Origin: Octopus sinensis
Lineage: Eukaryota
DNA length: 64,000 nucleotides
Direction: 5' to 3'
NCBI RefSeq assembly: GCF_006345805.1
Contig: NC_043001.1
Coordinates: 8,866,001-8,930,000 of the forward strand
Under the pieces are notes generated by a model. That model saw only the letters and a list, made by a program, of their open reading frames with translations. It was not told where the DNA came from and did not search any database. The position numbers and the translations under genes are program-made. Of the stretch, positions 14,131-59,535 are shown one piece after another; position 1 is the first letter of the stretch; each line of letters begins with the position of its first letter.

Positions 14131-14399
14131 GTCTTTTGTTCTTTTATACATTTTAGGTATATGTACATATAAGAACATTATTAATCATAAAAATAGTAAT
14201 GTTGGTGGCCGCAAGCGTAAACAAATGTATAGACAAATGTAATAAACGTATGTAATAAAAGTTATAGTCATATATAAGAGGGAACTAATAATCACCTGCT
14301 TTGCTATAGATGGGAGTCAAAAAATTCCGAAGCCAAATAAGAATCACTAAAGCAATACAGCCTTGGTAGAAAAAAGTAAGTGAATAAGATTTGTATCGC

Positions 14400-14580
14400 T
14401 TCTGTATTTCAGAGATGAGGAATTATGTACATTATTTACATTATTTACATTTAAAGGGATATTTGTCCTCATCCTGTTTGTTGTTAACACAATGTTTCGG
14501 CTGATATACTCTCCAGCTTTCATCAGGTGTCTTGGAGAAATTTCGAACCTGTTTTCTCATTCCTAAGGTATTTTCGATGC
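14400..14580 (-). mobile_element. Hammerhead-SINE copy 1 (headless)
   Basis: Reverse complement of the 17625-17820 body. Confidence 0.85.
14486..14531 (-). ncRNA. Minimal type I hammerhead ribozyme motif
   Basis: gacac CTGATGA a agctg-10nt-cagcc GAAAC ATT gtgtt. Confidence 0.65.
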
Positions 14581-14593
14581 TGTCGTCGTCGTC

Positions 14594-14625
<32 letters not shown>

Positions 14626-14758
14626 TATTATCAGTATTATCATCATTATTATTATTATTGAGTGAGAGGGCAGTGCATGCCATCAAAGTGACACTGGCGT
14701 ACAAATATACGAAGCCCAGTATACCCATCATGCCTACCCGTCTGATAAGGGTACACCC

Positions 14759-14831
<73 letters not shown>

Positions 14832-14834
14832 ATT

Positions 14835-17319
14835 GTCTTTGCACATCTTCTAACGCTGGATACACTACAGTGTCAGCTGTTCACTACCAGTGAACTAAGG
14901 CAACACCTCTTATTTTTCGAGCACCTTCCGGACTATTCCAACGGTTCCAAGCAGTGCTGTTCTTTGCAAGTGCTACACCCTTATTCCAGCCCCTATTTGT
15001 TCCACGTACGTCTCGAGATTTTTGCTCACTGTTCCCAGGGCTCCGAAAATTATTGGTACGACTGCTACCTTTTTCATCGACCACAACAGCTTAACTTCCC
15101 AAGCTAACCTGTCATATATCTCGACTTTTCTTACTTCCTTATCGCATACCTTGTTATCAGCTGGGCATGCTAAATCTATAATTCAGCATAGTTTACTTTC
15201 TTTCTCAATTAAGAATTCCTTTGTCCGGCTTCCTATTCTCTCTCTTGGTCGCACTGAATCATAAAATCCCATAGGATCTTTGCATTTCTATTTTCAATGA
15301 TGCCTTCAGGTTTGTGGTCATACCAATTTTTTTAGTCTGTGAAGTCCATTCATGTTGCAAAGTGTCCGATGGTCAATCCTGGCTATATTGTTGTGTAGTC
15401 TCTTATATCCCTTCTGGGCTAGAGGCGTACACTGGCTGGCAATTTGTCATACAGTTTCACCGTTTTGTTCACAGATTCTGCACTTATAACATTCTGCTAT
15501 GTTTTCTATTCTGTATTTTGTGCAGTTTGTTCTTAGTGCTTGCTTTTGGGCAGCACAGATTAGAGCCTCCTTTTCCAGTTTTAAATCACTTTTAGTCAAT
15601 CACAGCCATCTTTTGTCTCTGTCTGTCTTATTTTCAACATCTATATGAAATTGACCTTGCATTCTTTTCTTTACCCACCTATTTTCAGTTTCATTCGTTT
15701 CAATTTCTTGTATAGTGTTTTATCTTTGCAATCTTTCATCCTACGCAAGCCTGACCTTCTTACCCCCAATAATAGCGGTTCTGTGACATTTTTTACATAC
15801 CATGCTATGTTGTTTTCTTCTTCTCTAATGCTGTGTTCGCGTACAATAAGTCCTCTTCCTCCTGTTTTTTTCGTACATACAGTCTGTCCTGTGTCACTTG
15901 TTGGGTGGAGTGTACAATATCTAGTTAGCAACTTCCTTGTCTTTCTCTCTAAGCTGTTTAGTGCGTCTAGTGTCCATACGATTACCCCTGCTCCATATCT
16001 AAGGAGTGAAACTGCCCAGGTCTTGATAGCTTCGATCGTATTTCGTCCGTTTAGTTCTACTTGAGAATCAGTTTCAGTTTGCGCAAGTTCCCAACTGTAA
16101 ATTTTCCTGTCCTTTCTTTCTCAATTTATCCATTTCCAAAATCCCCAAGTTCTTATAGTTCGTCACTTCTATCTGCTTCACAACCTCCCCCAAACATTTA
16201 TTTTGCCTCTCTTCAATACTTTCTCAGCCCGAACTCCATTCTGATATCAGCACTGAAGGTATACACCGAATGAACAAGGGAACTGACTTGGGCTTCATCC
16301 TTACCATAATGTTTGAGGTCATCCATGAATAAGAAATGGTTGACTTTTTGTTGGTGGCTTTTGAATACATACCCATACGTTTGCTTTCCTCGGAATCAGT
16401 GTTAGTGGTATCAAGCGCTGTAAAAATATCAGTAGGTAAATGCAGTCACCTTGGACGATGCTCCTCTTAATTTCTCATGTCCATAAACTTCTTCCGTATG
16501 CTGTCATGGCCCTCCTCCAATTCGCCAGAAATCACTCATAATTTGATGTAATACCAAATAGGTTCATATACTCCATAATCCAAGAATGTGGGATCATATC
16601 GTACACATTATGATAGTAAATCCATGACAAGGCTAAGTTACTTTTCCTATTCTTGCAGTCTCTGAGTACAGTTTTGTCTATCAGGAGTGGATCCTTGGTT
16701 CCTCTACACTTACGCTTGCAACCTTTCTTCTCAGGACTCCATTTTTTGTAGATGTTCGTACATTGACTCTGCGAGTATTCCAGTCAATAATTTCCCCATA
16801 AGTGGCAAACAGGATATCAGCCTGTAATTGTCTACCGTATTGCCTTTTCGGTGTTTTTCGGGCACAGCACTGTCCTACCAAATGTCAACCACTCTGGTGT
16901 TACTTGGTCGGCATTTAACAAGGTGCAGCTATTCGTGCATGACATTCACCAAATCTTTTGATCCAGTAGCCTTGAACTCTATTTGGTCCCGGGGCTTTTC
17001 AGTTGCCTATTTATTTGCTGATTTCCTTCACTTCCCTAACTGAAATGACTAGTTCTGCCTGTTTTGGACAGACTACTCTTTCTTTCTTTCTTGCAACCAT
17101 TCAGCATCCTTCTTGTGTTCCTTGTCATTGCTCCAGATGTCATTCCAAAACCTTTGACTTTCAATGTTATCTGGTATTAAATTTTCATCGGTACATCCTC
17201 CATTTAATTATTTATAGAATCTCTTCTGATCTATTCTGAATAACCCAAACTGGTGGTAACACATCGTTCTTTGGTCGTATCTTACCATCTTTGCTTTCTT
17301 TGCAAAGATGCGCTGTCGT
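14835..17319 (-). mobile_element. R4/Dong-clade RLE non-LTR retrotransposon, degenerate, in (AAT)n
   Basis: RT motif NHFLFMDDLK near 16320-16345, GGRGL motif, zinc knuckle and RLE remnants, LLGT near the 3' end. (AAT)n on both sides. Confidence 0.85.
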
Positions 17320-17338
17320 GATTATTATTATTATTATT

Positions 17339-17412
<74 letters not shown>

Positions 17413-17450
17413 CATCATCATCATCATCATTATTATTATAATTATTATTA

Positions 17451-17484
<34 letters not shown>

Positions 17485-17489
17485 GACCG

Positions 17490-17561
17490 TGGGCATATGG
17501 CGTAGTGGTTAAGAGCGCGGGCTGCCAAGATTCCAAGTTCGATTTCAGGCAGTGACTTGAA

Positions 17562-17621
<60 letters not shown>

Positions 17622-17820
17622 TATAAACATCGAAAAATACCTTAGCAATGGGAACCCACGTTCGAAATTTCCCCAAGATGTTTGATGAAGGCTGGAAGAT
17701 ATATCAGCCGAAACGTTATGTTAACAACAAACAAGATGAAGACAAATATCGGTCAAATATAAATAACATAAATAATGTAAATAATGTACTTAATTCCTCA
17801 TCTCTTAAATATAGAACTGA
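17490..17820 (+). mobile_element. Hammerhead-SINE copy 2 (tRNA head, (AAT)n, hammerhead tail)
   Basis: A box TGGCGTAGTGG, B box GTTCGATTTC, (AAT)n, then a body containing the hammerhead. Confidence 0.85.
17677..17722 (+). ncRNA. Minimal type I hammerhead ribozyme motif
   Basis: gatgt TTGATGA a GGCTG-10nt-CAGCC GAAAC GTT atgtt. Perfect stem II, palindromic AACGTT stem III, C3 changed to U. Confidence 0.65.
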
Positions 17821-21662: not shown

Positions 21663-22641
21663 ATTTCCCCCTCTACCAATTTAGGGACGATACAACCTCG
21701 AGACAACGAATAAGTAAAGAAACTCTCTTTATTACGAAATACAGGCCACTTCTTAACGGGTCTACGACAAACGATTAATTTAGGGACGATACAACCTCGA
21801 GACAACGAATAAGTAAAGAAACTCTCTTTATTACAAAATACAGGCCACTTCTTAACGGGTCTACGACAAACGATTAATATACCTCAACTTTAGAATAAAA
21901 GATATACACACACAAATATTACATTCCAAAGAATCCATTACTAATCAGCCCCAATCACAGTTATAATCCATAACATGCCAACTTCAAGTCATACAACACC
22001 TCACTACTTTCACCCATTCATATTCTCCCTTCCCTGTTTTCTTCTTCTTCCTCTTCTTCTTCATCATCATCATTATCATCATCATCGTCGTCATCATCAT
22101 CATCTTCTTCTCCTTCTCCTTCTTCTTCTTCTCCATCATCATCATCATCAACATCGTCATCTTCTTCTTCTTCTTCTTCTCTTCTTCTTCTTCTTCTTCT
22201 TCTCCACCTTCTACCTCTTAACTTTGTCACTAATGCTTTTTAGTATAACACCTACGCAAATTCCATAAACAAGCCTTTCAATAGAAATATTCTCCTGAAT
22301 TGAACTGCGACTGCTAGCCGCCACTGACCATTCAAAATACGACCATCAGGGCACTCCCAGATTTTCCTACCCCCTCTCCTCATCAGCCTTCTTCTTCGTC
22401 TACCCTACCAAGAATTCACAACGACCTCGAACACACAAGTGCAAACAAGGGAGTCAGAGAAAGGCAGAATGCCACTTATATCTGAACACTATACGAATAT
22501 TCCTTTAAAAAAACTTTTCTTCTAATTTTTCTAAATTTAATTATTTAATCGTTACAGTTGAAAAGGTCTCAAAATGACCGAAACCGGTACTGAAATGTTC
22601 TTTATAAAATTATTTTAGCATTTTCTATTTTGACTTGTTTT

Positions 22642-22647
<6 letters not shown>
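21661..22647 (+). mobile_element. Penelope-like element 3' fragment (pLTR) in (TA)n
   Basis: Inverted copy of 24955-25893, with an internal tandem duplication of about 99 bp at 21678-21877. Confidence 0.9.
22552..22595 (+). ncRNA. Penelope minimal hammerhead ribozyme, U3-A8 variant
   Basis: cag TTGAAAA GGTC-tcaaaat-GACC GAAAC cg GTA ctg. ACCGGT palindromic stem III; predicted cut after 22589. Confidence 0.75.
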
Positions 22648-24911: not shown

Positions 24912-24959
<48 letters not shown>

Positions 24960-25004
24960 AACAAGTCAAAAATAGAAAATGCTAAAATAATTTTATAGTG
25001 AACA

Positions 25005-25049
25005 TTTCAGTACCGGTTTCGGTCATTTTGAGACCTTTTCAACTGTAAC
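25005..25049 (-). ncRNA. Penelope minimal hammerhead ribozyme, U3-A8 variant
   Basis: Identical core to 22552-22595. Confidence 0.75.
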
Positions 25050-25776
25050 GATTAAATAATTAAATTTAGAAAAATTAGAAGAAAATTTTTTTTTAAAGGA
25101 ATATTTCTATAGTAGTGTTCAGATTTAAGTGACATTCTGCCTTTCTCTGACTCCCTTGTTTGCACTTGTGTGTTGGAGGTCGTTGTGAGTTCTTGGTAGG
25201 GTAGTAAAGGAAGAAGGCTGGTGAGGAAAGGGGGTGGGAGAATCTGGGAGTGCCCTGATGGTCGTATTTTGAATGGTCAGTGGCGGCTGGCAGTCGCAGT
25301 TCAATTCAGGAGCATATTTATATTGACAGGCTTGTTTATAGAATTTGCGTAGGTGTTATACTAAAAAACATTAGTGACAAAGTTAAGGGGTAGGAGGTGG
25401 AGAAGTAGAAGAATGAGAAGAAGAAGAAGAAGAAGAAGAAGAAGAAGAAGAAGAAGAAGAAGAAGATGGTGATGTTGATGATGATGATGATGAAGAAGAA
25501 GTAGAAAAAGGAGAAGGAGAAGATGACGATGATGGTGATGGTGGTGATGATTATGACGACGATGATGATGATAATGATGATGATGAAGAAGAAGAGGAAG
25601 AAGAAGAAAAAAACAGAGAAGGGAGAATATGAATGGGTTAAAGTAGTGAGGTGTTGTATGACTTGAAGTTGGTATGTTATGGATTATAGCTGTGATTTTA
25701 GCTGTGATTAGTTATGGATTCTTTAGAATGTAATATTTGTGTGTGAATATTTCTTTTATTCTAAAGTTGAGGTATA

Positions 25777-26529
25777 TTAATTGTTTGTCGTAGACCCGTT
25801 AAGAAGTGGCCTGTATTTTGCAATAAAGAGAGTTTCTTTACTTATTCGTTGTCTCGAGGTTGTATCGTCCCTAAATTGGTAGAGGGGGAAAATCCTGAAG
25901 CTTGGTGTTTTTTTGTTGGCGCAAGTATCTATGTGTTGGCTAAAAGCTATTTTTCTGTTTTGGGGAATTTTTATCTGGGATCTGTGCAGGGCCATTCGTT
26001 TACGCAAACTATTTTTTGTTTGGCCTATGTACTGCTCTTGACACCCGGAGCAGGTTAGTGAGTATATTAGGTTCTCCGAAGCACATGTGAAGTTGCTTTT
26101 CACTGTAAACCGTTGTGCCTGTTTGAAGGAGAACTCTGATCCCTCAATTAGATAGTCGCATATCCCGCAATTGGGTCTTCCACATTCTTTTACTGTCGGC
26201 TTTTGTGTTGAAGAGTGAATTCGGGCTTGTGTTAGGAGACTTTTCATGGATTTAGGCTGTCTCTTGCTTTTTATGATCGTGTGTGTTTGGAGGATTGTGT
26301 TCATTCTGTGGTCTTTTTTTAGGAGGGGTATGTTGTGGAGGATGGTGCCGAAGGCTTCGTTATTGAGAGGGTTGTGTGTGGAGATGTATGGTAAGGCTTT
26401 TGGTTGTAAGTTTTTCTTTGATTTGGGATGTCTCAGTTCCTTGATGTTAAGTTGAAGGGCACGTTGAAGGGCACGTTGAATGCACTTGTCAATAAGTGAA
26501 GGTGGATAGTTCCTGGTGATAAGGGTATC
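25777..26529 (-). CDS. Penelope-like RT C-terminus, Cys linker and GIY-YIG endonuclease (partial)
   Basis: Frame open from DTLITRNYPPSLIDKCI through CGRPNCGIC, NLIYSLTCSGCQEQYIGQT, R…H and E…I…P.LN. Confidence 0.92.
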   Translation of the reverse strand, partial: DTLITRNYPPSLIDKCIQRALQRALQLNIKELRHPKSKKNLQPKALPYISTHNPLNNEAFGTILHNIPLLKKDHRMNTILQTHTIIKSKRQPKSMKSLLTQARIHSSTQKPTVKECGRPNCGICDYLIEGSEFSFKQAQRFTVKSNFTCASENLIYSLTCSGCQEQYIGQTKNSLRKRMALHRSQIKIPQNRKIAFSQHIDTCANKKTPSFRIFPLYQFRDDTTSRQRISKETLFIAKYRPLLNGSTTNN

Positions 26530-26699
26530 TTACACGACTACAAGAACTAAAAGATACCCTTATCACCAGGAACTATCCACCTTCACTTATTGACAAGTAT
26601 AATAAAGTATAATTGTCGTTGATTGCTGTTCTTGGACTCTACATTTAGCAGGTCAGCTGATATGGTAAGGACCCAACCTCAATATTCTATTGTTTAGAT

Positions 26700-29385: not shown

Positions 29386-29585
29386 GTCGTCGTTCAATGA
29401 CTGATCGCATTATTCAGCAATTCGATGGTATCTGTGGCTGGAGAAGAGATAATGACTATGATATGCTTGCATCGTAAAACCTGGCTCCAGTGTTCTGTGA
29501 GCTGATTCGGTTTATACAACGAATGCTGTTCTTACGTGTTCGAATAAAATGGAAGTCTATTTAAATGGGTAACAAGTTTGTATTA

Positions 29586-29864
29586 TGTAGTAAAGATTGC
29601 TTGCCACAATAACACGGTAGTCCTTGTTTAGGACTAATGTTGCTGTAATTTAGCCACAGGAGACATCGTCTCCAGTTGGCTATACGATACGATCTGTGTC
29701 CTTATATTTTCGAACAATGGAATCTAGCAACATGTTCGAAAATATAAGGACACAGATCGTGTCGTATAGGCAGCTGGAGACGATGTCTCCTGGGGCTAAA
29801 TTACAGCAACATTAGTCCTAAAACTAGGACTGCCATGTTAAGTTGGCAAACAATCTTTACTACA
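29586..29864. mobile_element. Fold-back/MITE-like hairpin (about 131-bp arms, 16-nt spacer)
   Basis: tgtagtaaagattg…ttcgaaca / tgttcgaa…caatctttactaca, nearly complementary. Confidence 0.85.
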
Positions 29865-30049
29865 AAGTACTGTTGCTGAATATCTCACGTTGTGAGATTT
29901 AAAAATAGTAAATTTCTTAAGTTTGCATTAGCATTCAAATGTTACTAAGGCAGCGGGCTACCAGAATCGTCAACACGTTGGGTAAAATGCTTAGCTACAT
30001 ACTGTCTGACTATTCGTGCACTAGTAACGATTCTAATAGTTTGCTCCTC

Positions 30050-42829: not shown

Positions 42830-43735
42830 TATCGATGTTCAAATTATGCCGACTTCAACTTTACTTTTCATCGTTTCGGACTCGATGAAACAAATAGTCT
42901 TTTCTACTCTAGCCTGAAGGCCCGAAATTTTGGACGAGGAAGCCAGTCGATTAGCTCGACTCCAGTAAGCAACTGGAAATGATGAAATGTAAAGTCGACC
43001 TCAGCGGAATTTGAACTCAGAACATAAAGACAGGTGAAATGCCGCTAAGCATTTCTCACGGCATGCTAACGTGTCAGCTAGATAATCGCCTTTTCTACGG
43101 TAGGCAGAAGGCCCGAAATTTTGGGGGAGGGGTCCAGTCGATTAGATCGACTCCAGTATGCAAGTGGTACTTAATTTATCGACCCCGAAAGGATGAAAGG
43201 AAAAGTCGACCGCGGCGGAATTTGAACTAAGAACGTAATGACAGACGAAATACTTATCTCTTTATTGCCCACAAGGGTCTAAACATAAAGGGGAAAAACA
43301 AGGACAGACAAACGGATTAAGTCGATTGCATCGACCCCAGTGCGTAAGTGGTACTTATTAAATCGAACCCGAAAGGATGAAAGGCAAAGTCGACCTCGGG
43401 GGAATTTGAGCTTAGAACGTAGCCGCAGACGAAATACCTATTTCTTTACTACCCACAAGGGGCCAAACACAGAGGGGACTAGCAAGGACAGACAAACGGA
43501 TTAAGTCGATTATATCGAACCCAGTGCGCAACTGGTACTTAATTTATCGACACCGAAAGGATGAAAGGCAAATTCGACCTCGGCGGAATTTGAACTAAGA
43601 ACGTAACGGCAGACGAAATACAGCTACGCATTTCGTCCGGCGTGCTATGTGTCAGCCATCTCATTGCCTTACGATGAAATAGATATTAGTTAAGTACTGG
43701 GGTGAATGTTGTCCACTTACCCCGTCTTCTAAAAT
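42830..43735 (-). mobile_element. Cluster/multimer of SINE family A units
   Basis: At least four repeats of aaagtcgacc…ggaatttgaact…cagacgaaata. Confidence 0.85.
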
Positions 43736-49824: not shown

Positions 49825-50037
49825 AATATTTACATTTGACGGATATTTTTCTTCATCTTGTTTGTTGTTAACACAACGTTTCGGGTGATATTCTCTCCAG
49901 CATTCATCAGGAGTCTTGGGGTAAATTTCGAATGGTTTCTCATTCCTAAGGTATTTTTCGATGTTATTATTATTATCGTTATTACAATTATTATTATTAT
50001 TATTATTAATATTCAGGTCACTGCCTGGAATCGAACA
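49825..50037 (-). mobile_element. Hammerhead-SINE copy 3 (5'-truncated at the B box)
   Basis: Hammerhead at 49870-49915: gactc CTGATGA…GAAAC GTT gtgtt. Confidence 0.85.
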
Positions 50038-50039
50038 CG

Positions 50040-50312
50040 AGCATATGGCGTAGAAGTTAAAAGCGTGGACTACTTAGCCCAAAATTCTGAGTTCGATTCC
50101 AGGCAGTCACCTGAATAATAATATTAATAATAATAATAATAATAATAGTAATAATAATAATATCATAGAAAAATACCTTAAGAATGAGAACGGATGTTCG
50201 AAATTTCCCCAAGACACCTGATGAAAGCTGGAGGGTATATCAGCCGAAACTTTATGTTAACAACAAACAAGATGAGGAAAATATCCGTCAAATGTAAATA
50301 ACGTACATAATA
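50040..50312 (+). mobile_element. Hammerhead-SINE copy 4
   Basis: tRNA head, (AAT)n, hammerhead at 50213-50258: gacac CTGATGA a agctg…cagcc GAAAC. Confidence 0.85.
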
Positions 50313-51201: not shown

Positions 51202-51327
51202 ACGCTGAATTTACACCTCTTTCTTAATAGCGTTACATTATCTTCATAAAAATATACAATGGATGGCTCTCTTGCGGCTTCGAATGTGCTCCAGGCATAT
51301 CTTAATCGGTAACAAATTTGTATATAT

Positions 51328-51735
51328 TTATTTATTGCCCACAAGGGGTTAAACACAGAGGAGATAAACAAGGACAGAGAAAGGGATTAAGTCGATTACA
51401 TGCACTCAGTGCAAAACTGGTACTTTATTTATCGACCCCGAAAGGATGAAACGCAAAGTCGACCTCGGCGGAATTTGAACTCACATCGTAACGACAGACG
51501 AAATACCTATTTCTTTACTACCCACAAGGGGCTAAACAGATAGGATAAACAAGGACAGACAAACGGATTAAGTCGATTATATCGACCCCAGTGCGTAACT
51601 GGTACCCAATTTATCGACCCCGAAATGATGAAAGGCAATGTCGAGCTCGGCGGAATTTGAACTCACAACGTAAAGACAAACGAAATACCGCTTAGTATCT
51701 CGCCCGGCGTGCTAACGTTTCTGCTAGCTCGCCGC
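51328..51735 (-). mobile_element. SINE family A dimer with TSD of about 27 bp
   Basis: cttaatcggtaacaaatttgtatatat at 51301 and 51736. Confidence 0.9.
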
Positions 51736-54099
51736 CTTAATCGGTAACAAATTTGTATATATACACATGGCGGCTCAGCGCCGTCATTCCACAATTAACA
51801 TTAGTCATCAAATCTGTGTTGCTCTTTTTCTTGTAAGATATTTTTTATTAAACATATTTCCTTCCAAGATACAATCACCCTGACGTCTTCGATTGGCGTT
51901 GCATTAGTCATTGAACAGTGTTTTCTCTCATGCTGCATAGGTATTATTAATTAACAGTATGGGTTTCTTTAAGTCTACTAAGATTAATGGTCCTGACTCT
52001 TTTGCTTCTTGTGAATAGAGTCTCACGGTAACTTTCTTCTGTTACAGCATTTTAAGGGTCATATTAACACAGTTATCCATCTTTATTTCCATTACCTGCA
52101 TAATTATTTATTTAGCTCTGGAGCCAACCTCTGTGCAGCGTTTATTCGTTTGAAGCATATACTTTCAATTTAAATCGTAGCGAAGACATTGTGTTGTCCA
52201 ATAATTTATGAAAATTGTAACAATTTATGCAAGCGAGTTCTGTGTATATAATCACTCTACATGTCGATTTAACAATGCAGTGTGTGTTCTAAATCACGCT
52301 AACATAATTAAAGCTTTAGAGAGAAGACCTTACGTATAAATACTAAATCTCATGATAACTTGTACATAATAAAGATGGGATATGTGTGACTGAAACACTG
52401 TCAGAACAATAAATTTGGCCTATAATAATTGACTGAACGTTCGATAATCCAAGTCGAGACTGAAACAACATTCTCGACATTGCTTGATTTTCATCGTCCC
52501 GTGTTTTCAATAAACCGACTTAAGTGCTATAAATCTATTCAAGCAGGGCTGAATGAGATTATTCAACAACTGCAATGACAACAGAAACAAAGACAAAAGA
52601 TTATATACCGAATGAAATATTTAATCGACATTTACCAAACCCTGCCTAAGGAATTTTAAATATTTAGAAGATATCTCCACGCAATCTTCTCGTTTTAAGT
52701 AGCATTAGATCAGTTTTGATCAATATGATCTTCAGAGATTAATGTTGAGGTAAAATCCATTCATCATTTTAAGGAGCTTGTCTCACAGCGGTATACATCA
52801 TTCCCTTAATCATATTTTTATACACACGAATCTACAGGTATATATACACTTCACTTCCGATATTTGCTTAATGACTTGTATTGGTTAAATTTTTCAAATT
52901 CTTTCTTTACCTTTCTTAAAATCTATTCTCTATATTTAATTTATGAATGGCTGTCGGCCAGGAAAACCTTAAAACATTGTGATATATATTGTGCTATTTT
53001 AAATTCAGCTGGTCGTATACTCCGTAAGTACGCAAGCGGCTGAAACAAGATATTACTTTTACCTTCCCAATAAGAATATACCAGTAATTCTTAATTGAAT
53101 TCAGTGTTTTTCAAAGACAAACGATTTTCTTTCACTTGTGATTGAAAAACGGAAACGCGTTATGAATCTTTAATAAAGGCTGTACATTATATAAATTACC
53201 TTTTCTTTTTAATAAAACTACATTATTAAAAAAAAATACGTTCTTACTGCTGCTCAAAATCAACCGTACGATCGATCTCAACTATGCCATTTCTACTATT
53301 CTTAAACCGTTATTCCAGAGTTAGCCTCTGTGTTCACTAAACTGTGCACGTCATTAATATATTTCTAGTAAGAATAAGACTGTCAGATACATGACATTTG
53401 CATTCGCTTCCACTTTATGCGACTCACTCATTTCTTCTACCACGAACCAAACATTTTACAAACCTCTGAAATATGAATCAATGTATTTTCATCTGTAAGC
53501 TGTCATTGTGGTTCAAAATACACTCTATAATCAAGCTTCAACAGTCTTAAATAGTTTATGGTTAATGGCAAATTAGATAATGTCTCGCGATGTTTGGTTG
53601 AATTCTCTGTGCGCAGAGATGAAGTAAGACCGAGATCAATTTTGACTTTCATTATTTCGAGATCGGTGAACTTATACAAAATAAGATTGGTGGTTTAGAG
53701 TGACTTTCATTGATTCGAACAAAATATCTTGCAGTATATAGAATAGTTGAGACAGTATTACCTGAAATTATAATGGTTTCAAACTGTTCTGCAAAGTCAG
53801 CGGCTTTGACTTGATAAAGACCGATGGAGTTCCAGGGGAGAAGCTTCCTCAAATTATTATACCCAGGCCTGTTCATTTATGTCTATTCATATTGAAAAGA
53901 TCAACCGATGGAAGTCTTATTCAATTAAATTTTACTCTAAAACTTAGTGTCGATGTTTACGTATTCTCCTCTCTTCTTCAATTATTTCGCATTATATTAA
54001 GCAACTCAGATTCCAGCTTTTACTCCTTGTATTTCTTCTCATTCTTATACACTCACCTTCAGTATAAAATGCTCTTTGAATTATTCTAGTTATTCTTTT

Positions 54100-54505
54100 A
54101 ATCTTTAATTTGCTTCAGTTAATAGACTTCGGCCATGCTGGTGCACCGCCTATACTCGAACAAATCGACCACAGGACATATTCTTTGTAAGCCTAGTACT
54201 TATTCTATCGGCCTCTTTGCCAAACTGCTCAGTTATGGAAACGTAAGCACACCAACAGAGGTTGTCAAGTGATGGTGGGAGGATAAACACAGACACAGAA
54301 ACATATGCATATAATATATATATTATATATATAATATATATATATTATATATATATATATACATATATATACGACGGGCTTCTTTCAGTTTCCGTCTACC
54401 AAATCCACTCACAAGGCTATGGTCAACCCGAGGTTAGAGTAGCCGACACTTGCCCAGCTGCCACGAAGTGGGACTGAACTTCGGAACACAAGAGCCACTC
54501 GTGCG
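54100..54505 (-). mobile_element. SINE family C, full length (duplicate at 57175-57580)
   Basis: Tail, internal (TA)n and head motifs all present. Confidence 0.85.
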
Positions 54506-55475
54506 TCTATATGTATTGTTTATGGCTACAGGAGGTCACCAACTGTGTAAACAACATGACGTACGAAAACAAACGAGTTATATACATAAATTACGAGAGA
54601 AAAATGGAAAACAGGACAAGTAGCTTAGAGAAAAACCCTTCATCAGTTATCGGCTGACTATCTTCGCCTTATTTCGAGTATTGAACGACAACATGAGACT
54701 TCAAAACCCTCTGTCCCTTAAATTCCATAAATGGATTTATGGTGTCCGTGTGTTATCGACGAGGCACGAAGCGGCGATTTTCTGTGCCCGATATCGAAAG
54801 AACGCACTTAAGCTCACGGTATCGCCCACGTACACGTGGATGTACCCGCGACCGATGCCGGAAGGATGTCACGAGATACACACGGTCGATACGGCGACGT
54901 GGTCCGTCCCGTAAATTTCCGAAAGATGACAACTGCGGCCAGTGCAGGTATTGGCGGTGTGTTAAGTGGATTTATGGAGAGTCAAAGAGATTGTGTATTT
55001 AATATTACGTTGTAGGTCGTTTTTATGCTCTGACAGGAAGTTCGAGAACTGAAACCTAATGCAGTAACGACATGTTAGGCGCTGCATGTATTTATATGTT
55101 GTCTTTCATTTTAGTAGATTTCTAAGAACTTGTAATGTAGTGGTGCTGTTAAGTTACTTGGTGGTGCTATTAAACTAGACATCGCTTGGGCGTATACTGG
55201 CCGAAACCTATCAAAGTTGTTATCATAATTTTGTGTTCCTTTATATTTAATTTTCAGTATATTAGGATATTGGCAGGGTATATTCCACGATATATCAAAC
55301 CTTTGTACTAAGCTTATATTTCCCGGGAGCTGTTTCTGCGTCGTTTTGTTTTCCCCTGTTTATGTTTCATCTCTGTAATGATAACGTTGTAGAAATATTG
55401 TTTTTATATTGTTTGTTTGGTTGTACAATTCTTCTCTGTTTGTATTATGTGCGCCCATGCACGTTTGGTATGATT

Positions 55476-55850
55476 GGAGGCGCAATGGCCCAGTGGTTAG
55501 GGCACGGACTCGCGGTCATAGGATCGCGGGTTCGATTCCCAGACCGGGCGTTGTGAGGGTATTGAGCGAAAACACCTAAAGCTCCACGAGGCTTCCGGCA
55601 GGGATGGTGCTGATCCCTGCTGTACTCTTTCACCACAACTTTCTCTCACTCTTACTTCTGTTTCTGTTGTACCTGTATTTCAAGGGCCGGCCTTGCCACT
55701 CTCTGTGTCACGCCTGATATCCCCGAGAACTACGTTAAGGTACACGTGTCTGTGGAATGCTCAGCCACTTACACGTTAATTTCACGAGCAGGCTGTTCCG
55801 TTGATCGGATCAACCGGAACCCTCGTCGTCGTAACCGACGGAGTGCTTCC
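55476..55850 (+). mobile_element. SINE family B, full length (duplicate at 58547-58920)
   Basis: A box TGGCCCAGTGG and B box GGTTCGATTCC. TSD-like tggtatgatt at about 55466 and 55856. Confidence 0.88.
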
Positions 55851-56091
55851 GTCCATGGTATGATTACGAAGACAATTAAAATAATGGCTTGTATTTAATA
55901 TTATATAACGCTGTTGTTCACAAACACTGGATTCTGTCTGACGAACGCGTCACGTCTTTGTCAAGAACTGCGAGTAGTTTTCTGTTACGTAAATACAAAG
56001 ATAGCTTTGTGATAGATGCGATTGGAATATTTCATCTCAGAGACTATTCCTTCACATGAATCCCGTTTCATCTTCTTTAAGAACTCCTTAC

Positions 56092-56257
56092 AATGAAACG
56101 CGAAAAGAAAGCGGGATGTGCGGCCCATTAGAAATTTTAGTAAAAGTAGGTGACAATGTCGAAATCAATGTGGTTAAATGGACCTGCTCAAAGTTATATG
56201 GGGGTAATCTGACAGCAAGACAGCAGCTATCACTTGTCTTTGGTATGTCAGAGTAAC
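56092..56257 (-). CDS. GREB1-like exon 2, 3' part (in-frame copy left of the gap)
   Basis: Open frame YSDIPKTSDSCCLAVRLPPYNFEQVHLTTLISTLSPTFTKISNGPHIPLSFRVS with TT|gtaagg donor. Truncated by the N-gap. Confidence 0.65.
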
Positions 56258-59161
56258 NNNNNNNNNNNNNNNNNNNNNNNNNNNNNNNNNNNNNNNNNNN
56301 NNNNNNNNNNNNNNNNNNNNNNNNNNNNNNNNNNNNNNNNNNNNNNNNNNNNNNNNNAACTATGCCCATTTCTACTACTATTTCTAAACCGTATTCCAGA
56401 GTTAGCCTCTGTGTCACTAAACTGGTGCACGTCATTAATATATTTCTAGTAAGAATAAACTGTCAGATACATGACATTTGCATTCGCTTCCACTTTATGC
56501 GACTCACTCATTTCTTCTACCACGAACCAAACATTTTACAAACCTCTGAAATATGAATCAATGTATTTTCATCTGTAAGCTGTCATTGTGGTTCAAAATA
56601 CACTCTATAATCAAGCTTCAACAGTCTTAAATAGTTTATGGTTAATGGCAAATTAGATAATGTCTCGCGATGTTTGGTTGAATTCTCTGTGCGCAGAGAT
56701 GAAGTAAGACCGAGATCATTTGACTTTCATTATTTCGAGATCGTTGAACTTATACAAAATAAGATTGGTGGTTTAGAGTGACTTTCATTGATTCGAACAA
56801 ATATCTTGCAGTAGATAGAATAGTTGAGACAGTATTACCTGAAATTATAATGGTTTCAAACTGTTCTGCAAAGTCGCGGCTTTGACTTGATAAAGACCGA
56901 TGGAGTTCCAGGGGAGAAGCTTCTCAATTATTATACCCAGGCCTGTTCATTTATGTCTATTCATATTGAAAAGATCAACCGATGGAAGTCTTATTCAATT
57001 AAATTTTACTCTAAAACTTAGTGTCGATGTTTACGTATTCTCCTCTCTTCTTCAATTATTTCGCATTATATTAAGCAACTCAGATTCCAGCTTTTACTCC
57101 TTGTATTTCTTCTCATTCTTATACACTCACCTTCAGTATAAAATGCTCTTTGAATTATTCTAGTTATTCTTTTAATCTTTAATTTGCTTCAGTTAATAGA
57201 CTTCGGCCATGCTGGTGCACCGCCTATACTCGAACAAATCGACCACAGGACATATTCTTTGTAAGCCTAGTACTTATTCTATCGGCCTCTTTGCCAAACT
57301 GCTCAGTTATGGAAACGTAAGCACACCAACAGAGGTTGTCAAGTGATGGTGAGAGGATAAACACAGACACAGAAACATATGCATATAATATATATATTAT
57401 ATATATAATATATATATATTATATATATATATATACATATATATACGACGGGCTTCTTTCAGTTTCCGTCTACCAAATCCACTCACAAGGCTATGGTCAA
57501 CCCGAGGTTAGAGTAGCCGACACTTGCCCAAGCTGCCACGAAGTGGGACTGAACTCGGAACCACAGAGCCACTCGTGCGTCTATATGTATTTGTTTATGG
57601 CTACAGGAGGTCACCAACTGTGTAAACAACATGACGTACGAAAACAAACGAGTTATATACATAAATTACGAGAGAAAAATGGAAAACAGGACAAGTAGCT
57701 TAGAGAAAAACCCTTCATCAGTTATCGGCTGACTATCTTCGCCTTATTTCGAGTATTGAACGACAACATGAGACTTCAAAAACATCTGTTCCCTTAAATT
57801 CCATAAATGGATTTATGGTGTCCGTGTGTTATCGACGAGGCACGAAGCGGCGATTTTCTGTGCCCGATATCGAAAGAACGCACTTAAGCTCACGGTATCG
57901 CCCACGTACACGTGGATGTACCCGCGACCGATGCCGGAAGGATGTCACGAGATACACACGGTCGATACGGCGACGTGGTCCGTCCCGTAAATTTCCGAAA
58001 GATGACAACTGCGGCCAGTGCAGGTATTGGCGGTGTGTTAAGTGGATTTATGGAGAGTCAAAGAGATTGTGTATTTAATATTACGTTGTAGGTCGTTTTT
58101 ATGCTCTGACAGGAAGTTCGAGAACTGAAACCTAATGCAGTAACGACATGTTAGGCGCTGCATGTATTTATATGTTGTCTTTCATTTTAGTAGATTTCTA
58201 AGAACTTGTAATGTAGTGGTGCTGTTAAGTTACTTGGTGGTGCTATTAAACTAGACATCGCTTGGGCGTATACTGGCCGAAACCTATCAAAGTTGTTATC
58301 ATAATTTTGTGTTCCTTTATATTTAATTTTCAGTATATTAGGATATTGGCAGGGTATATTCCACGATATATCAAACCTTTGTACTAAGCTTATATTTCCC
58401 GGGAGCTGTTTCTGCGTCGTTTTGTTTTCCTCTTATGTTTCATCTCTGTAATGATAACGTTGTAGAAATATTGTTTTTATATTGTTGTTTGTATTTACAA
58501 TTTTCTCTGTTTGTATGATGTGCGCCCATGCACGTTTGGTATGATTGGAGGCGCAATGGCCCAGTGGTTAGGGCAGCGGACTCGCGGTCATAGGATCGCG
58601 GGTTCGATTCCCAGACCGGGCGTTGTGAGGGTATTGAGCGAAAACACCTAAAGCTCCACGAGGCTTCCGGCAGGGATGGTGCTGATCCCTGCTGTACTCT
58701 TTCACCACAACTTTCTCTCACTCTTACTTCTGTTTCTGTTGTACCTGTATTTCAAGGGCCGGCCTTGCCACTCTCTGTGTCACGCCTGATATCCCCGAGA
58801 ACTACGTTAAGGTACACGTGTCTGTGGAATGCTCAGCCACTTACACGTTAATTTCACGAGCAGGCTGTTCCGTTGATCGGATCAACCGGACCCTCGTCGT
58901 CGTACCGACGGAGTGCTTCCGTCCATGGTATGATTACGAAGACAATTAAAATAATGGCTTGTATTTAATATTATATAACGCTGTTGTTCACAAACACTGG
59001 ATTCTGTCTGACGAACGCGTCACGTCTTTGTCAAGAACTGCGAGTAGTTTTCTGTTACGTAAATACAAAGATAGCTTTGTGATAGATGCGATTGGAATAT
59101 TTCATCTCAGAGACTATTCCTTCACATGAATCCCGTTTCATCTTCTTTAAGAACTCCTTAC

Positions 59162-59535
59162 AATGAAACGCGAAAAGAAAGCGGGATGTGCGGCCCATTA
59201 AGAAAATTTTAGTAAAGTAGGTGACAATGTCGAAATCAATGTGGTTAAATGGACCTGCTCAAATTTATATGGGGGGTAATCTGACAGCAAGACAGCAGCT
59301 ATCACTTGTCTTTGGTATGTCAGAGTAACACAGAGTTTTGAATGGAGTGACCCGAATCAACCTCAAGTTGTTCCCCAATTTAAACATCCTTTCTGCATTA
59401 TTTCTTTTTTCTCTCTTTGCTTTATAGCGATTACAAATCATTCTGTTAATATTGTCCTCCATTTTTTTTGCTGATTTCTCTTTTCTAGACCATATAAATT
59501 CCCCCAGCTGTCTTGTATAGGACTTCGTTTTCCTT
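59162..59535 (-). CDS. GREB1-like exon 2 (copy right of the gap, small indels in the 3' part)
   Basis: ctaccag| acceptor and |gtaagg donor. Encodes MFKLGNNLRLIRVTPFKTLCYSDIP. Confidence 0.65.

What the first reader, a model, noticed from the sequence alone, without database searches (positions are those of the whole stretch)
14400..17820. Both hammerhead-SINE loci are head-to-head inverted pairs, the Penelope insertion signature
Seen: at 49825-50312 a 5'-truncated inverted copy directly abuts the head of a full copy. At 14400-17820 the same arrangement appears once the later insertions (element D and the 2.5-kb Dong LINE, both in the (AAT)n of copy 1) are removed. Established: Penelope-like insertions often carry an inverted, truncated copy at the 5' end. 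Inference: two of two loci with this geometry is independent support for Penelope-type mobilisation. Such pairs could also form dsRNA in the host pre-mRNA.
Basis: partly seen in the sequence, partly recalled or inferred. Interest (0 to 1): 0.75.

Follow-up and report, generated by a model that had tools for sequence, protein, structure and literature searches.

The report
Penelope end-repeats inserted as mirror pairs
These mirror-image repeats are not a separate SINE but the end repeat of a protein-coding Penelope jumping gene, which sits as head-to-head pairs at most sampled places in this genome and likely makes each pair in one insertion, with RNA from such pairs likely folding into hairpins that get edited.

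Summary
Both loci are head-to-head pairs, and the geometry holds beyond the window: 28 of 46 position-ordered loci have an inverted 5' partner, against 0 of 30 and 2 of 30 for two control SINEs.
1. The 'SINE' is the pseudo-LTR of a coding Penelope/Poseidon-type element. Its tRNA-like head follows the ORF end, and its hammerhead body encodes the ORF's N-terminus. The scan's earlier notes read it this way on other DNA of this genome; I confirmed it.
2. Target-site duplications are present around whole pairs (48 of 70, at least 8 bp; about 3% by chance), as published for Penelope inserts.
3. None of those 70 pairs has the Penelope 'tail' on both arms. Locus 1 has two tails and no TSD, so it may be a composite of two insertions. 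Locus 2 has neither tail nor TSD.
RNA-seq reads of the family show an A>G/T>C excess over genomic copies, which fits editing of fold-back RNA; there was no matched DNA. The geometry is a known Penelope signature. The tRNA-like head and the one-tail rule are the unusual points.

The parts
14397..14421 (-). Tail (25-nt extension that reads on into the PLE ORF) of the left arm, locus 1
   Evidence: sequence; the exact 25-mer occurs 4183 times in G000
14422..14579 (-). Left arm body, locus 1: pLTR part coding the ORF N-terminus, with the 9-bp repeat near its 3' end
14486..14531 (-). Minimal type I hammerhead motif; one core substitution in the palindromic stem III
   Evidence: sequence; motif type from PMC4209133
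14660..14757 (-). 5'-truncated element D, a separate repeat that ends in (AAT)n; nested in the AAT tract
14831..17320 (-). 5'-truncated, frameshifted LINE with RT, CCHC-like and PD..D-like (REL) motifs, bounded by AAT tracts; the R4/Dong label is inferred from motifs and target, no tree made
   Evidence: RVT_1 E 0.042; 3 of 3 other 3' ends followed by AAT-rich repeats
17483..17496 (.). Palindromic head-to-head junction: 6-bp inverted tip, 2-bp loop, start of the plus head
   Evidence: the same junction in 27 of 79 pairs; exact 18-mer at 767 places in G000
17491..17560 (+). tRNA-like head with A box (17498) and B box (to 17546)
   Evidence: not called by ARAGORN or Rfam in other copies
17628..17794 (+). 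Right arm body, locus 1, with hammerhead motif at 17677-17722 (core C3 changed to T)
17795..17819 (+). Tail of the right arm, locus 1 (second tail: atypical)
49827..50036 (-). Locus 2 inverted arm, truncated in the head; hammerhead core intact at 49870-49915; no tail
50041..50312 (+). Locus 2 direct arm: head, (AAT)n, body with hammerhead motif 50213-50258 (one core substitution); no tail

Best explanation
The repeat is the pseudo-LTR of a decayed, protein-coding Penelope/Poseidon-type retrotransposon, and most sampled copies sit as TSD-flanked head-to-head pairs that likely arise in one insertion, in which both nicked target strands would prime reverse transcription at two different start sites. 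Shown here: the unit order is ORF end, tRNA-like head, (AAT)n, hammerhead body that codes the ORF N-terminus, and tail; pairs are head-to-head, have at most one tail, and are bounded by 8-15 bp direct repeats. Taken from the anole element PAc in vitro (PMC11167929): the protein cuts and extends both strands, and starts at two sites that are a tail apart. Inferred: one nick uses the distal site and the other the proximal site, and the two cDNA ends join by microhomology, often at the small hairpin at the head's 5' end. Also inferred: short copies stop at the head because the RNA starts there (Pol III) or because the hairpin stops or captures the cDNA. Window locus 2 is such a pair that has no tail or TSD, most likely through decay. 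At locus 1 the junction is genuine, but the left tailed arm more likely than not (about 60%) comes from a second insertion, joined by a deletion or rearrangement around the nested LINE. When transcribed, pairs fold into long hairpins that are likely A-to-I edited.
For: ORF link: 30 of 30 loci picked by the ORF's 3' kilobase have the head directly downstream in the same orientation. In L335 and L192 the tail reads on into further ORF sequence. L335 is collinear with an intact 847-aa RT protein, P0003, from residue 34 to 843, and the body peptide of a short copy matches its N-terminus (L206, E 3e-8). Geometry: 79 of 113 loci paired and 1 tail-to-tail; 14 of 20 fresh loci paired; controls 0 of 30 and 2 of 30 on the matching side. 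TSD of at least 8 bp: 36 of 57 against 2.8% for permuted flanks, and 12 of 13 fresh pairs. Tails: 57 of 57 pairs had exactly one (43 of these not picked by tail); of 13 fresh pairs 11 had one full tail, 1 a partial tail, 1 none, 0 two. ORF-bearing pairs show the same pattern (L317, L319, L336, L340, L359). 66 of 74 arms that cover the head's middle stop between 10 nt before and 25 nt after its start. RNA: A>G at 22-23 places and T>C at 20-22 places in three RNA-seq runs, against 4 and 3 places in 261 genomic hits; at one site 0 of 140 genomic copies against 24-30% of reads. Literature: PMC3846280 (8-10 bp TSD around inverted pLTR inserts, tail on one pLTR, junction palindromes), PMC8557442, PMC11167929.
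Against: Both window loci depart from the rule (two tails and none; no TSD in either). 34 of 113 and 6 of 20 loci show no inverted partner. 21 of 57 pairs have no 8-bp TSD. Arms of a pair are only slightly more alike than arms of different loci (92.3 against 91.2%, p 0.027, n 31). No intact ORF was found among 30 ORF-bearing copies (longest open frame 551 aa), and Pfam gave no hit for it. PAc in vitro showed no difference in start site between strands, so the one-tail rule is not yet explained by that work. The RNA runs carry another organism code than most holders, have no matched DNA, pool many loci, and no control family was laid; C>T and G>A were also up to about twice the genomic level at most listed sites. 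No pile of read starts or ends marked a Pol III start or a ribozyme cut. The clade was assigned by domain layout, not by a tree.
Confidence: 0.88

Rival explanations
1. A true non-autonomous tRNA-SINE lineage, split off from the pLTR, is mobilised in trans by the PLE.
For: Short copies far outnumber ORF-bearing ones. 66 of 74 arms stop at the head. A-box and B-box matches with at most one mismatch occur in 50 and 44 of 62 heads, 34 nt apart in most.
Against: The head, AAT, body and tail are the same in ORF-linked copies, including the 9-bp repeat spacers. The body codes the ORF start. I made no tree of short against ORF-linked copies.
Confidence: 0.2
2. For locus 1 only: it is a single, rare two-tailed insertion whose TSD has decayed, later split by the LINE and element D.
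For: An inverted tip abuts the head and reads into the AAT tract. L341 shows the same LINE family nested in the minus arm's AAT tract of a single pair. No third body lies in the window.
Against: 0 of 70 pairs have two tails (95% upper bound 4%). L341 keeps one tail and a 9-bp TSD, while locus 1 has no TSD.
Confidence: 0.4
3. The pairs are fold-back DNA transposons (MITE-like) with long terminal inverted repeats, or chance neighbours of an abundant SINE.
For: Inverted ends and a TSD around the whole unit.
Against: The arms have unequal, variable 5' truncations, only one arm has a tail, TSD length varies, and some arms carry RT ORF pieces. Control SINEs with more exact matches do not pair.
Confidence: 0.02
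4. The second arm is made by fold-back self-priming of one cDNA (or an antisense template) at the head hairpin, rather than by priming from both nicks.
For: Junction palindrome in 27 of 79 pairs; many pairs keep 16-30 nt of inverted head and then jump. Self-priming was proposed in PMC3846280 (section 11 read).
Against: Fold-back alone predicts that the tailed, first-made arm is the longer one. Observed: tailless arm longer in 28, tailed arm longer in 18, equal in 11. Later deletions could blur this.
Confidence: 0.3

Closest known systems
Penelope/Poseidon-clade PLEs, e.g. PAc of Anolis carolinensis (PMC11167929; parts 1-2 of 4 read)
   Same: Single RT plus C-terminal endonuclease-type ORF, hammerhead overlapping the ORF start inside the pLTR, tail that is the ORF continuation, no read ends at the ribozyme cut site in RNA-seq.
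   Different: Here the pLTR opens with a tRNA-like A/B-box head and an (AAT)n tract, most copies stop at that head, and no intact ORF was found.
Pen2a_Av and related Penelope elements of Adineta vaga (PMC3846280; passages and discussion read)
   Same: Inverted truncated pLTR at the 5' end, 8-10 bp TSD around the whole insert, tail on one inverted pLTR, palindromes at the junction, pLTR coding the first residues of the ORF.
   Different: Low copy number and a TATA/Inr-like promoter there; thousands of short pairs and a tRNA-like head here.
Hammerhead SINE-like repeats of Schistosoma mansoni (review PMC6765202; passages read)
   Same: Pol III-type promoter followed by a hammerhead.
   Different: Described as non-coding tandem repeats; here the unit is part of a coding PLE and forms inverted pairs.
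Animal non-LTR retrozymes (bioRxiv 10.64898/2026.07.22.740005, parts 1-2 of 5; PMC7229834, passages)
   Same: Type I hammerhead, relation to pLTRs.
   Different: Retrozymes are head-to-tail tandems with circular RNAs; here direct tandems are rare and inverted pairs dominate.
Repeat-directed A-to-I editing in coleoids (PMC9068888; passages read)
   Same: Editing of repeat-derived untranslated RNA.
   Different: Here each insertion supplies its own near-perfect hairpin of up to about 250 bp per arm.

Membership tests
Penelope-like elements (EN+) | PLE-type RT ORF attached to the repeat | tested here: met
   RT frame, 55% identical over 555 aa to P0003 and 27% to the genome's Neptune-like RT
Penelope-like elements (EN+) | C-terminal GIY-YIG endonuclease | tested here: inconclusive
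   Motif-like C-terminus seen by eye. Pfam PF01541 did not hit L337, L319 or P0003; four of the 120 listed relatives carry it precomputed.
Penelope-like elements (EN+) | pLTR formed by a truncated tandem copy that includes the ORF start | tested here: met
   L335: partial body and tail, ORF, head, body, tail
Penelope-like elements (EN+) | Inverted 5'-truncated copy at the 5' end | tested here: met
   79 of 113 and 14 of 20 loci
Penelope-like elements (EN+) | Tail at one end only | tested here: met
   0 of 70 two-tailed; window locus 1 is the exception
Penelope-like elements (EN+) | Short variable TSD around the insert | tested here: met
   48 of 70 with at least 8 bp; not seen at the two window loci
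Penelope-like elements (EN+) | Minimal type I hammerhead with palindromic stem III in the pLTR | tested here: met
   Core letters kept in 76-100% of genomic copies; matched by eye to PMC4209133; no Rfam hammerhead hit
Penelope-like elements (EN+) | Ribozyme self-cleavage | not testable with these tools
   No pile of read ends in standard RNA-seq, which cannot exclude cleavage
Penelope/Poseidon clade | No Zn-finger-like linker between RT and EN (unlike Neptune/Nematis) | tested here: met
   no CxxC pair in the linker of P0003 or L337; criterion from PMC8557442
Penelope/Poseidon clade | RT phylogeny | not tested
   No labelled reference sequences at hand
tRNA-derived SINE | A and B boxes near the 5' end | tested here: met
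   50 and 44 of 62 heads with at most one mismatch; consensus from PMC8969392; ARAGORN default 0 of 10 loci
tRNA-derived SINE | Non-coding unit independent of an ORF | tested here: not met
tRNA-derived SINE | Solitary, tail-primed copies, each with its own TSD | tested here: not met
   Pairs dominate; the control family B is solitary with TSDs in 9 of 15 full-length copies
tRNA-derived SINE | Pol III transcription | tested here: inconclusive
   5' ends pile up at the head, and T4 runs are scarce on the ORF sense strand (5 seen against 29 expected, copies not independent); no start site seen in RNA
Non-LTR retrozyme | Head-to-tail tandem units, each with a hammerhead | tested here: not met
   Direct tandems were occasional (e.g. 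L030, L207); no direct neighbours among 10 bodies in the 1-Mb sample

The most novel reading that the evidence does not exclude
A coding Penelope element runs on a captured tRNA-type Pol III promoter inside its pLTR and is its own SINE source. Every insertion uses both RT start sites exactly once, one per nick, and joins the two cDNAs at a hairpin in the tRNA leader. The result is on the order of ten thousand ready-made fold-back hairpins that feed ADAR editing in this genome.
Probability: 0.3. Interest if true: 0.72.

Novelty: new variant of a known kind. Interest (0 to 1): 0.42.

Why it matters
How Penelope elements make inverted ends and one-sided tails is still open (PMC8557442, PMC11167929). 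Thousands of short pairs give a large natural data set. The near-strict one-tail rule and the TSD around whole pairs constrain the model: the two RT start sites are not chosen independently on the two strands, which the PAc in vitro system can test. The family would be misfiled as a SINE in repeat libraries. It is also a plausible mass source of dsRNA for ADAR. The geometry itself is a known signature, and the scan has already noted the tRNA-headed pLTR elsewhere in this genome.

Tried and rejected
- Rfam on the window and on four loci gave no hammerhead or tRNA row among those listed (34 low-scoring rows were not shown). ARAGORN at default found no tRNA in 10 loci; at a relaxed threshold it called heads inconsistently amid noise.
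- The first partner search, with Pfam GIY-YIG, returned mostly Neptune-like elements with a different hammerhead and tail; 0 of 30 loci matched the body. These are rejected as the source.
- I first read the tail in a wrong frame; the correct frame came from L335.
- My automatic duplicate filter wrongly dropped four loci; it was redone by coordinates, dropping 7 of 120 loci: 2 window loci and 5 repeats of the same place.
- No genome-wide count of two-tailed pairs was obtained, so the bound rests on 70 sampled pairs.
- No RNA holder was listed as RNA on record in the index; the three raw-read runs were added by species label.
- No empty-site allele of either window locus was examined.
- A Pfam scan of 36 window frames showed no convincing host exon, so an intronic position of these loci is not shown.
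- Paper searches showed no description of a tRNA-headed pLTR. Repbase, Dfam, most subscription journals and the preprint's supplements could not be seen and may hold this family.

Full report
What was checked. I read both loci and self-aligned the masked window. Four copies of one body occur: 14457-14579 (-), 17628-17755 (+), 49827-49963 (-) and 50164-50300 (+). The unit is a tRNA-like head of about 80 nt, an (AAT)n tract, a body of about 150 nt with a minimal type I hammerhead, and an optional 25-nt tail. The window lies in a 2.7-Gb assembly, G000. Earlier scan notes call it octopus; I did not check that.

Observation. At locus 2 a minus arm cut within the head abuts a plus copy, and the pair folds as one hairpin (z -33). 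At locus 1 the plus copy's head is preceded by a 6-bp inverted tip and an (ATT)n tract. Then follow a frameshifted LINE with RT and REL-like motifs, element D, and a minus body with tail. Element D and three other 3' ends of this LINE are followed by AAT-rich repeats elsewhere, which fits nesting in the AAT tract. The Dong name rests on these motifs and on Dong's TAA target (PMC3774820, passages).

Genome-wide test of the geometry. I drew loci in five ways: best matches to the body, best matches to the head, first places of an exact tail 25-mer (4183 in the genome), first places of a hammerhead 20-mer (6774), and 1 Mb at round coordinates. After dropping 2 window loci and 5 repeats, 79 of 113 loci had an inverted partner on the 5' side and 1 on the 3' side. 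Twenty further position-ordered loci, read with 4.5-kb flanks, gave 14 of 20. In the 1-Mb sample, 6 of 10 bodies lay in head-to-head pairs within 500 bp. Opposite-strand neighbours that close numbered 4 for 144, 0 for 29, 1 for 119 and 0 for 16 hits of four other families. Nine clusters per Mb suggest roughly 25,000 loci, with wide error.

TSDs and tails. Of 57 pairs with both outer ends, 36 share at least 8 bp between the two flanks (2.8% for permuted flanks) and 24 share at least 10 bp (0.2%); full-length control family B gave 9 of 15. The fresh set gave 12 of 13. So the whole pair is duplicated-site bounded, which argues for one event. All 57 pairs had exactly one tail (14 were picked by tail). 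Of the 13 fresh pairs, 11 had one full tail, 1 a partial tail and 1 none. None of 70 had two. An exact 18-bp head-to-head palindrome occurs at 767 places, and 27 of 79 pairs keep such a junction.

The window loci against this rule. Locus 1 has a tail on both arms and no TSD; locus 2 has no tail and no TSD. L341 is a close analogue of locus 1, with the same LINE family inside the minus arm, yet it keeps one tail and a 9-bp TSD. I therefore put about 60% on locus 1 being a composite; this is inference, and no empty allele was seen.

What the element is. My own search found Poseidon-like RT pieces beside three tailed copies. The scan's earlier notes, read in the same step, said the repeat is a pLTR and changed my reading, so I tested it. 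In L195 the ORF end runs straight into the head. All 30 loci picked by that ORF stretch have the head directly downstream. In L335 a partial body and tail read in frame into the ORF, which ends before a second head, body and tail. L335 is collinear with P0003, an intact 847-aa RT protein from an unnamed assembly, and the body peptide matches its N-terminus. ORF-bearing pairs also show one tail and often a TSD. No intact ORF was found in 30 copies. The layout lacks the Neptune linker zinc finger, so the type is Penelope/Poseidon by architecture; no tree was built, and Pfam did not call the endonuclease.

Mechanism. PAc cuts and extends both strands and starts reverse transcription at two sites that delimit the tail (PMC11167929, parts 1-2 of 4). 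The simplest fit is that each nick primes one arm, one at each site, and the cDNA ends join by microhomology. Fold-back self-priming remains possible, but arm lengths do not favour it (28 tailless longer, 18 tailed longer, 11 equal). Arms within a pair are only slightly more alike than arms between loci. Of 74 arms that cover the middle of the head, 66 end between 10 nt before and 25 nt after its start. A and B boxes are kept, and T4 runs are scarce on the ORF sense strand (weak, since the copies share one ancestor). This fits a Pol III start, but the hairpin at the same place could give the same pile-up.

dsRNA. Three RNA-seq runs laid on one copy (about 6% of each run read, apparently unstranded, one study) show A>G at 22-23 places and T>C at 20-22 places in at least 5% of reads. 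In 261 genomic hits the counts are 4 and 3 (which left out 11 nt of AAT). Single sites show 0 of 140 against 24-30%, and 2 of 153 against 24-28%. This is the pattern expected of A-to-I editing on both strands. Limits: another organism code, no matched DNA, pooled loci, no control family, and C>T and G>A also somewhat raised. It does not show that the two window loci are transcribed; no host exon was identified. No pile of read ends marked a start site or a ribozyme cut.

Verdict. The pairs are real and are the known Penelope signature, here in a high-copy pLTR. A tRNA-like head in a coding PLE's pLTR did not appear in my paper searches, but repeat databases were not searchable and the scan has noted it before.

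Noticed in passing
window 21664-22642 (+) and 24957-26594 (-): Two pieces of a second, Neptune-like PLE face each other 3' to 3'; the minus piece has a GIY-YIG frame (25780-26529) and a 107-bp palindrome at its 5' end (26488-26594).
   Followed up: partly
window 53280-56257 and 56358-59329: A 3-kb direct duplication at 97-98% identity on either side of a 100-N gap; probably an assembly artefact.
   Followed up: no
window 43136-43671 and 51325-51739: Family A occurs as head-to-tail arrays with a period of about 183 bp; 41 direct neighbours within 500 bp among 144 hits in 1 Mb.
   Followed up: no
L161-L190 (e.g. L165, L180, L183): The abundant Neptune-like family has open frames up to about 780-880 aa, a hammerhead-like motif with a U3-A8-type core (judged by eye) and its own optional tail.
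   Followed up: partly
L235, L238, L240, L243: Four copies begin at body position 37-39, a possible truncation hot spot upstream of the hammerhead.
   Followed up: no
L209/L210 and block C19:20040800-20042100: Two cases of neighbouring insertions whose tails face each other, 87 bp and about 1 kb apart.
   Followed up: no
L002, L021, L029, L030, L205, L241, L242, L341: The (AAT)n tract of the pLTR is often hit by LINE 3' ends or element D, which separates body from head and explains some 'solo' copies.
   Followed up: partly
window 26488-26594 and 29580-29870: A second long palindrome at 29580-29870 (86% self-complementary), not identified.
   Followed up: no
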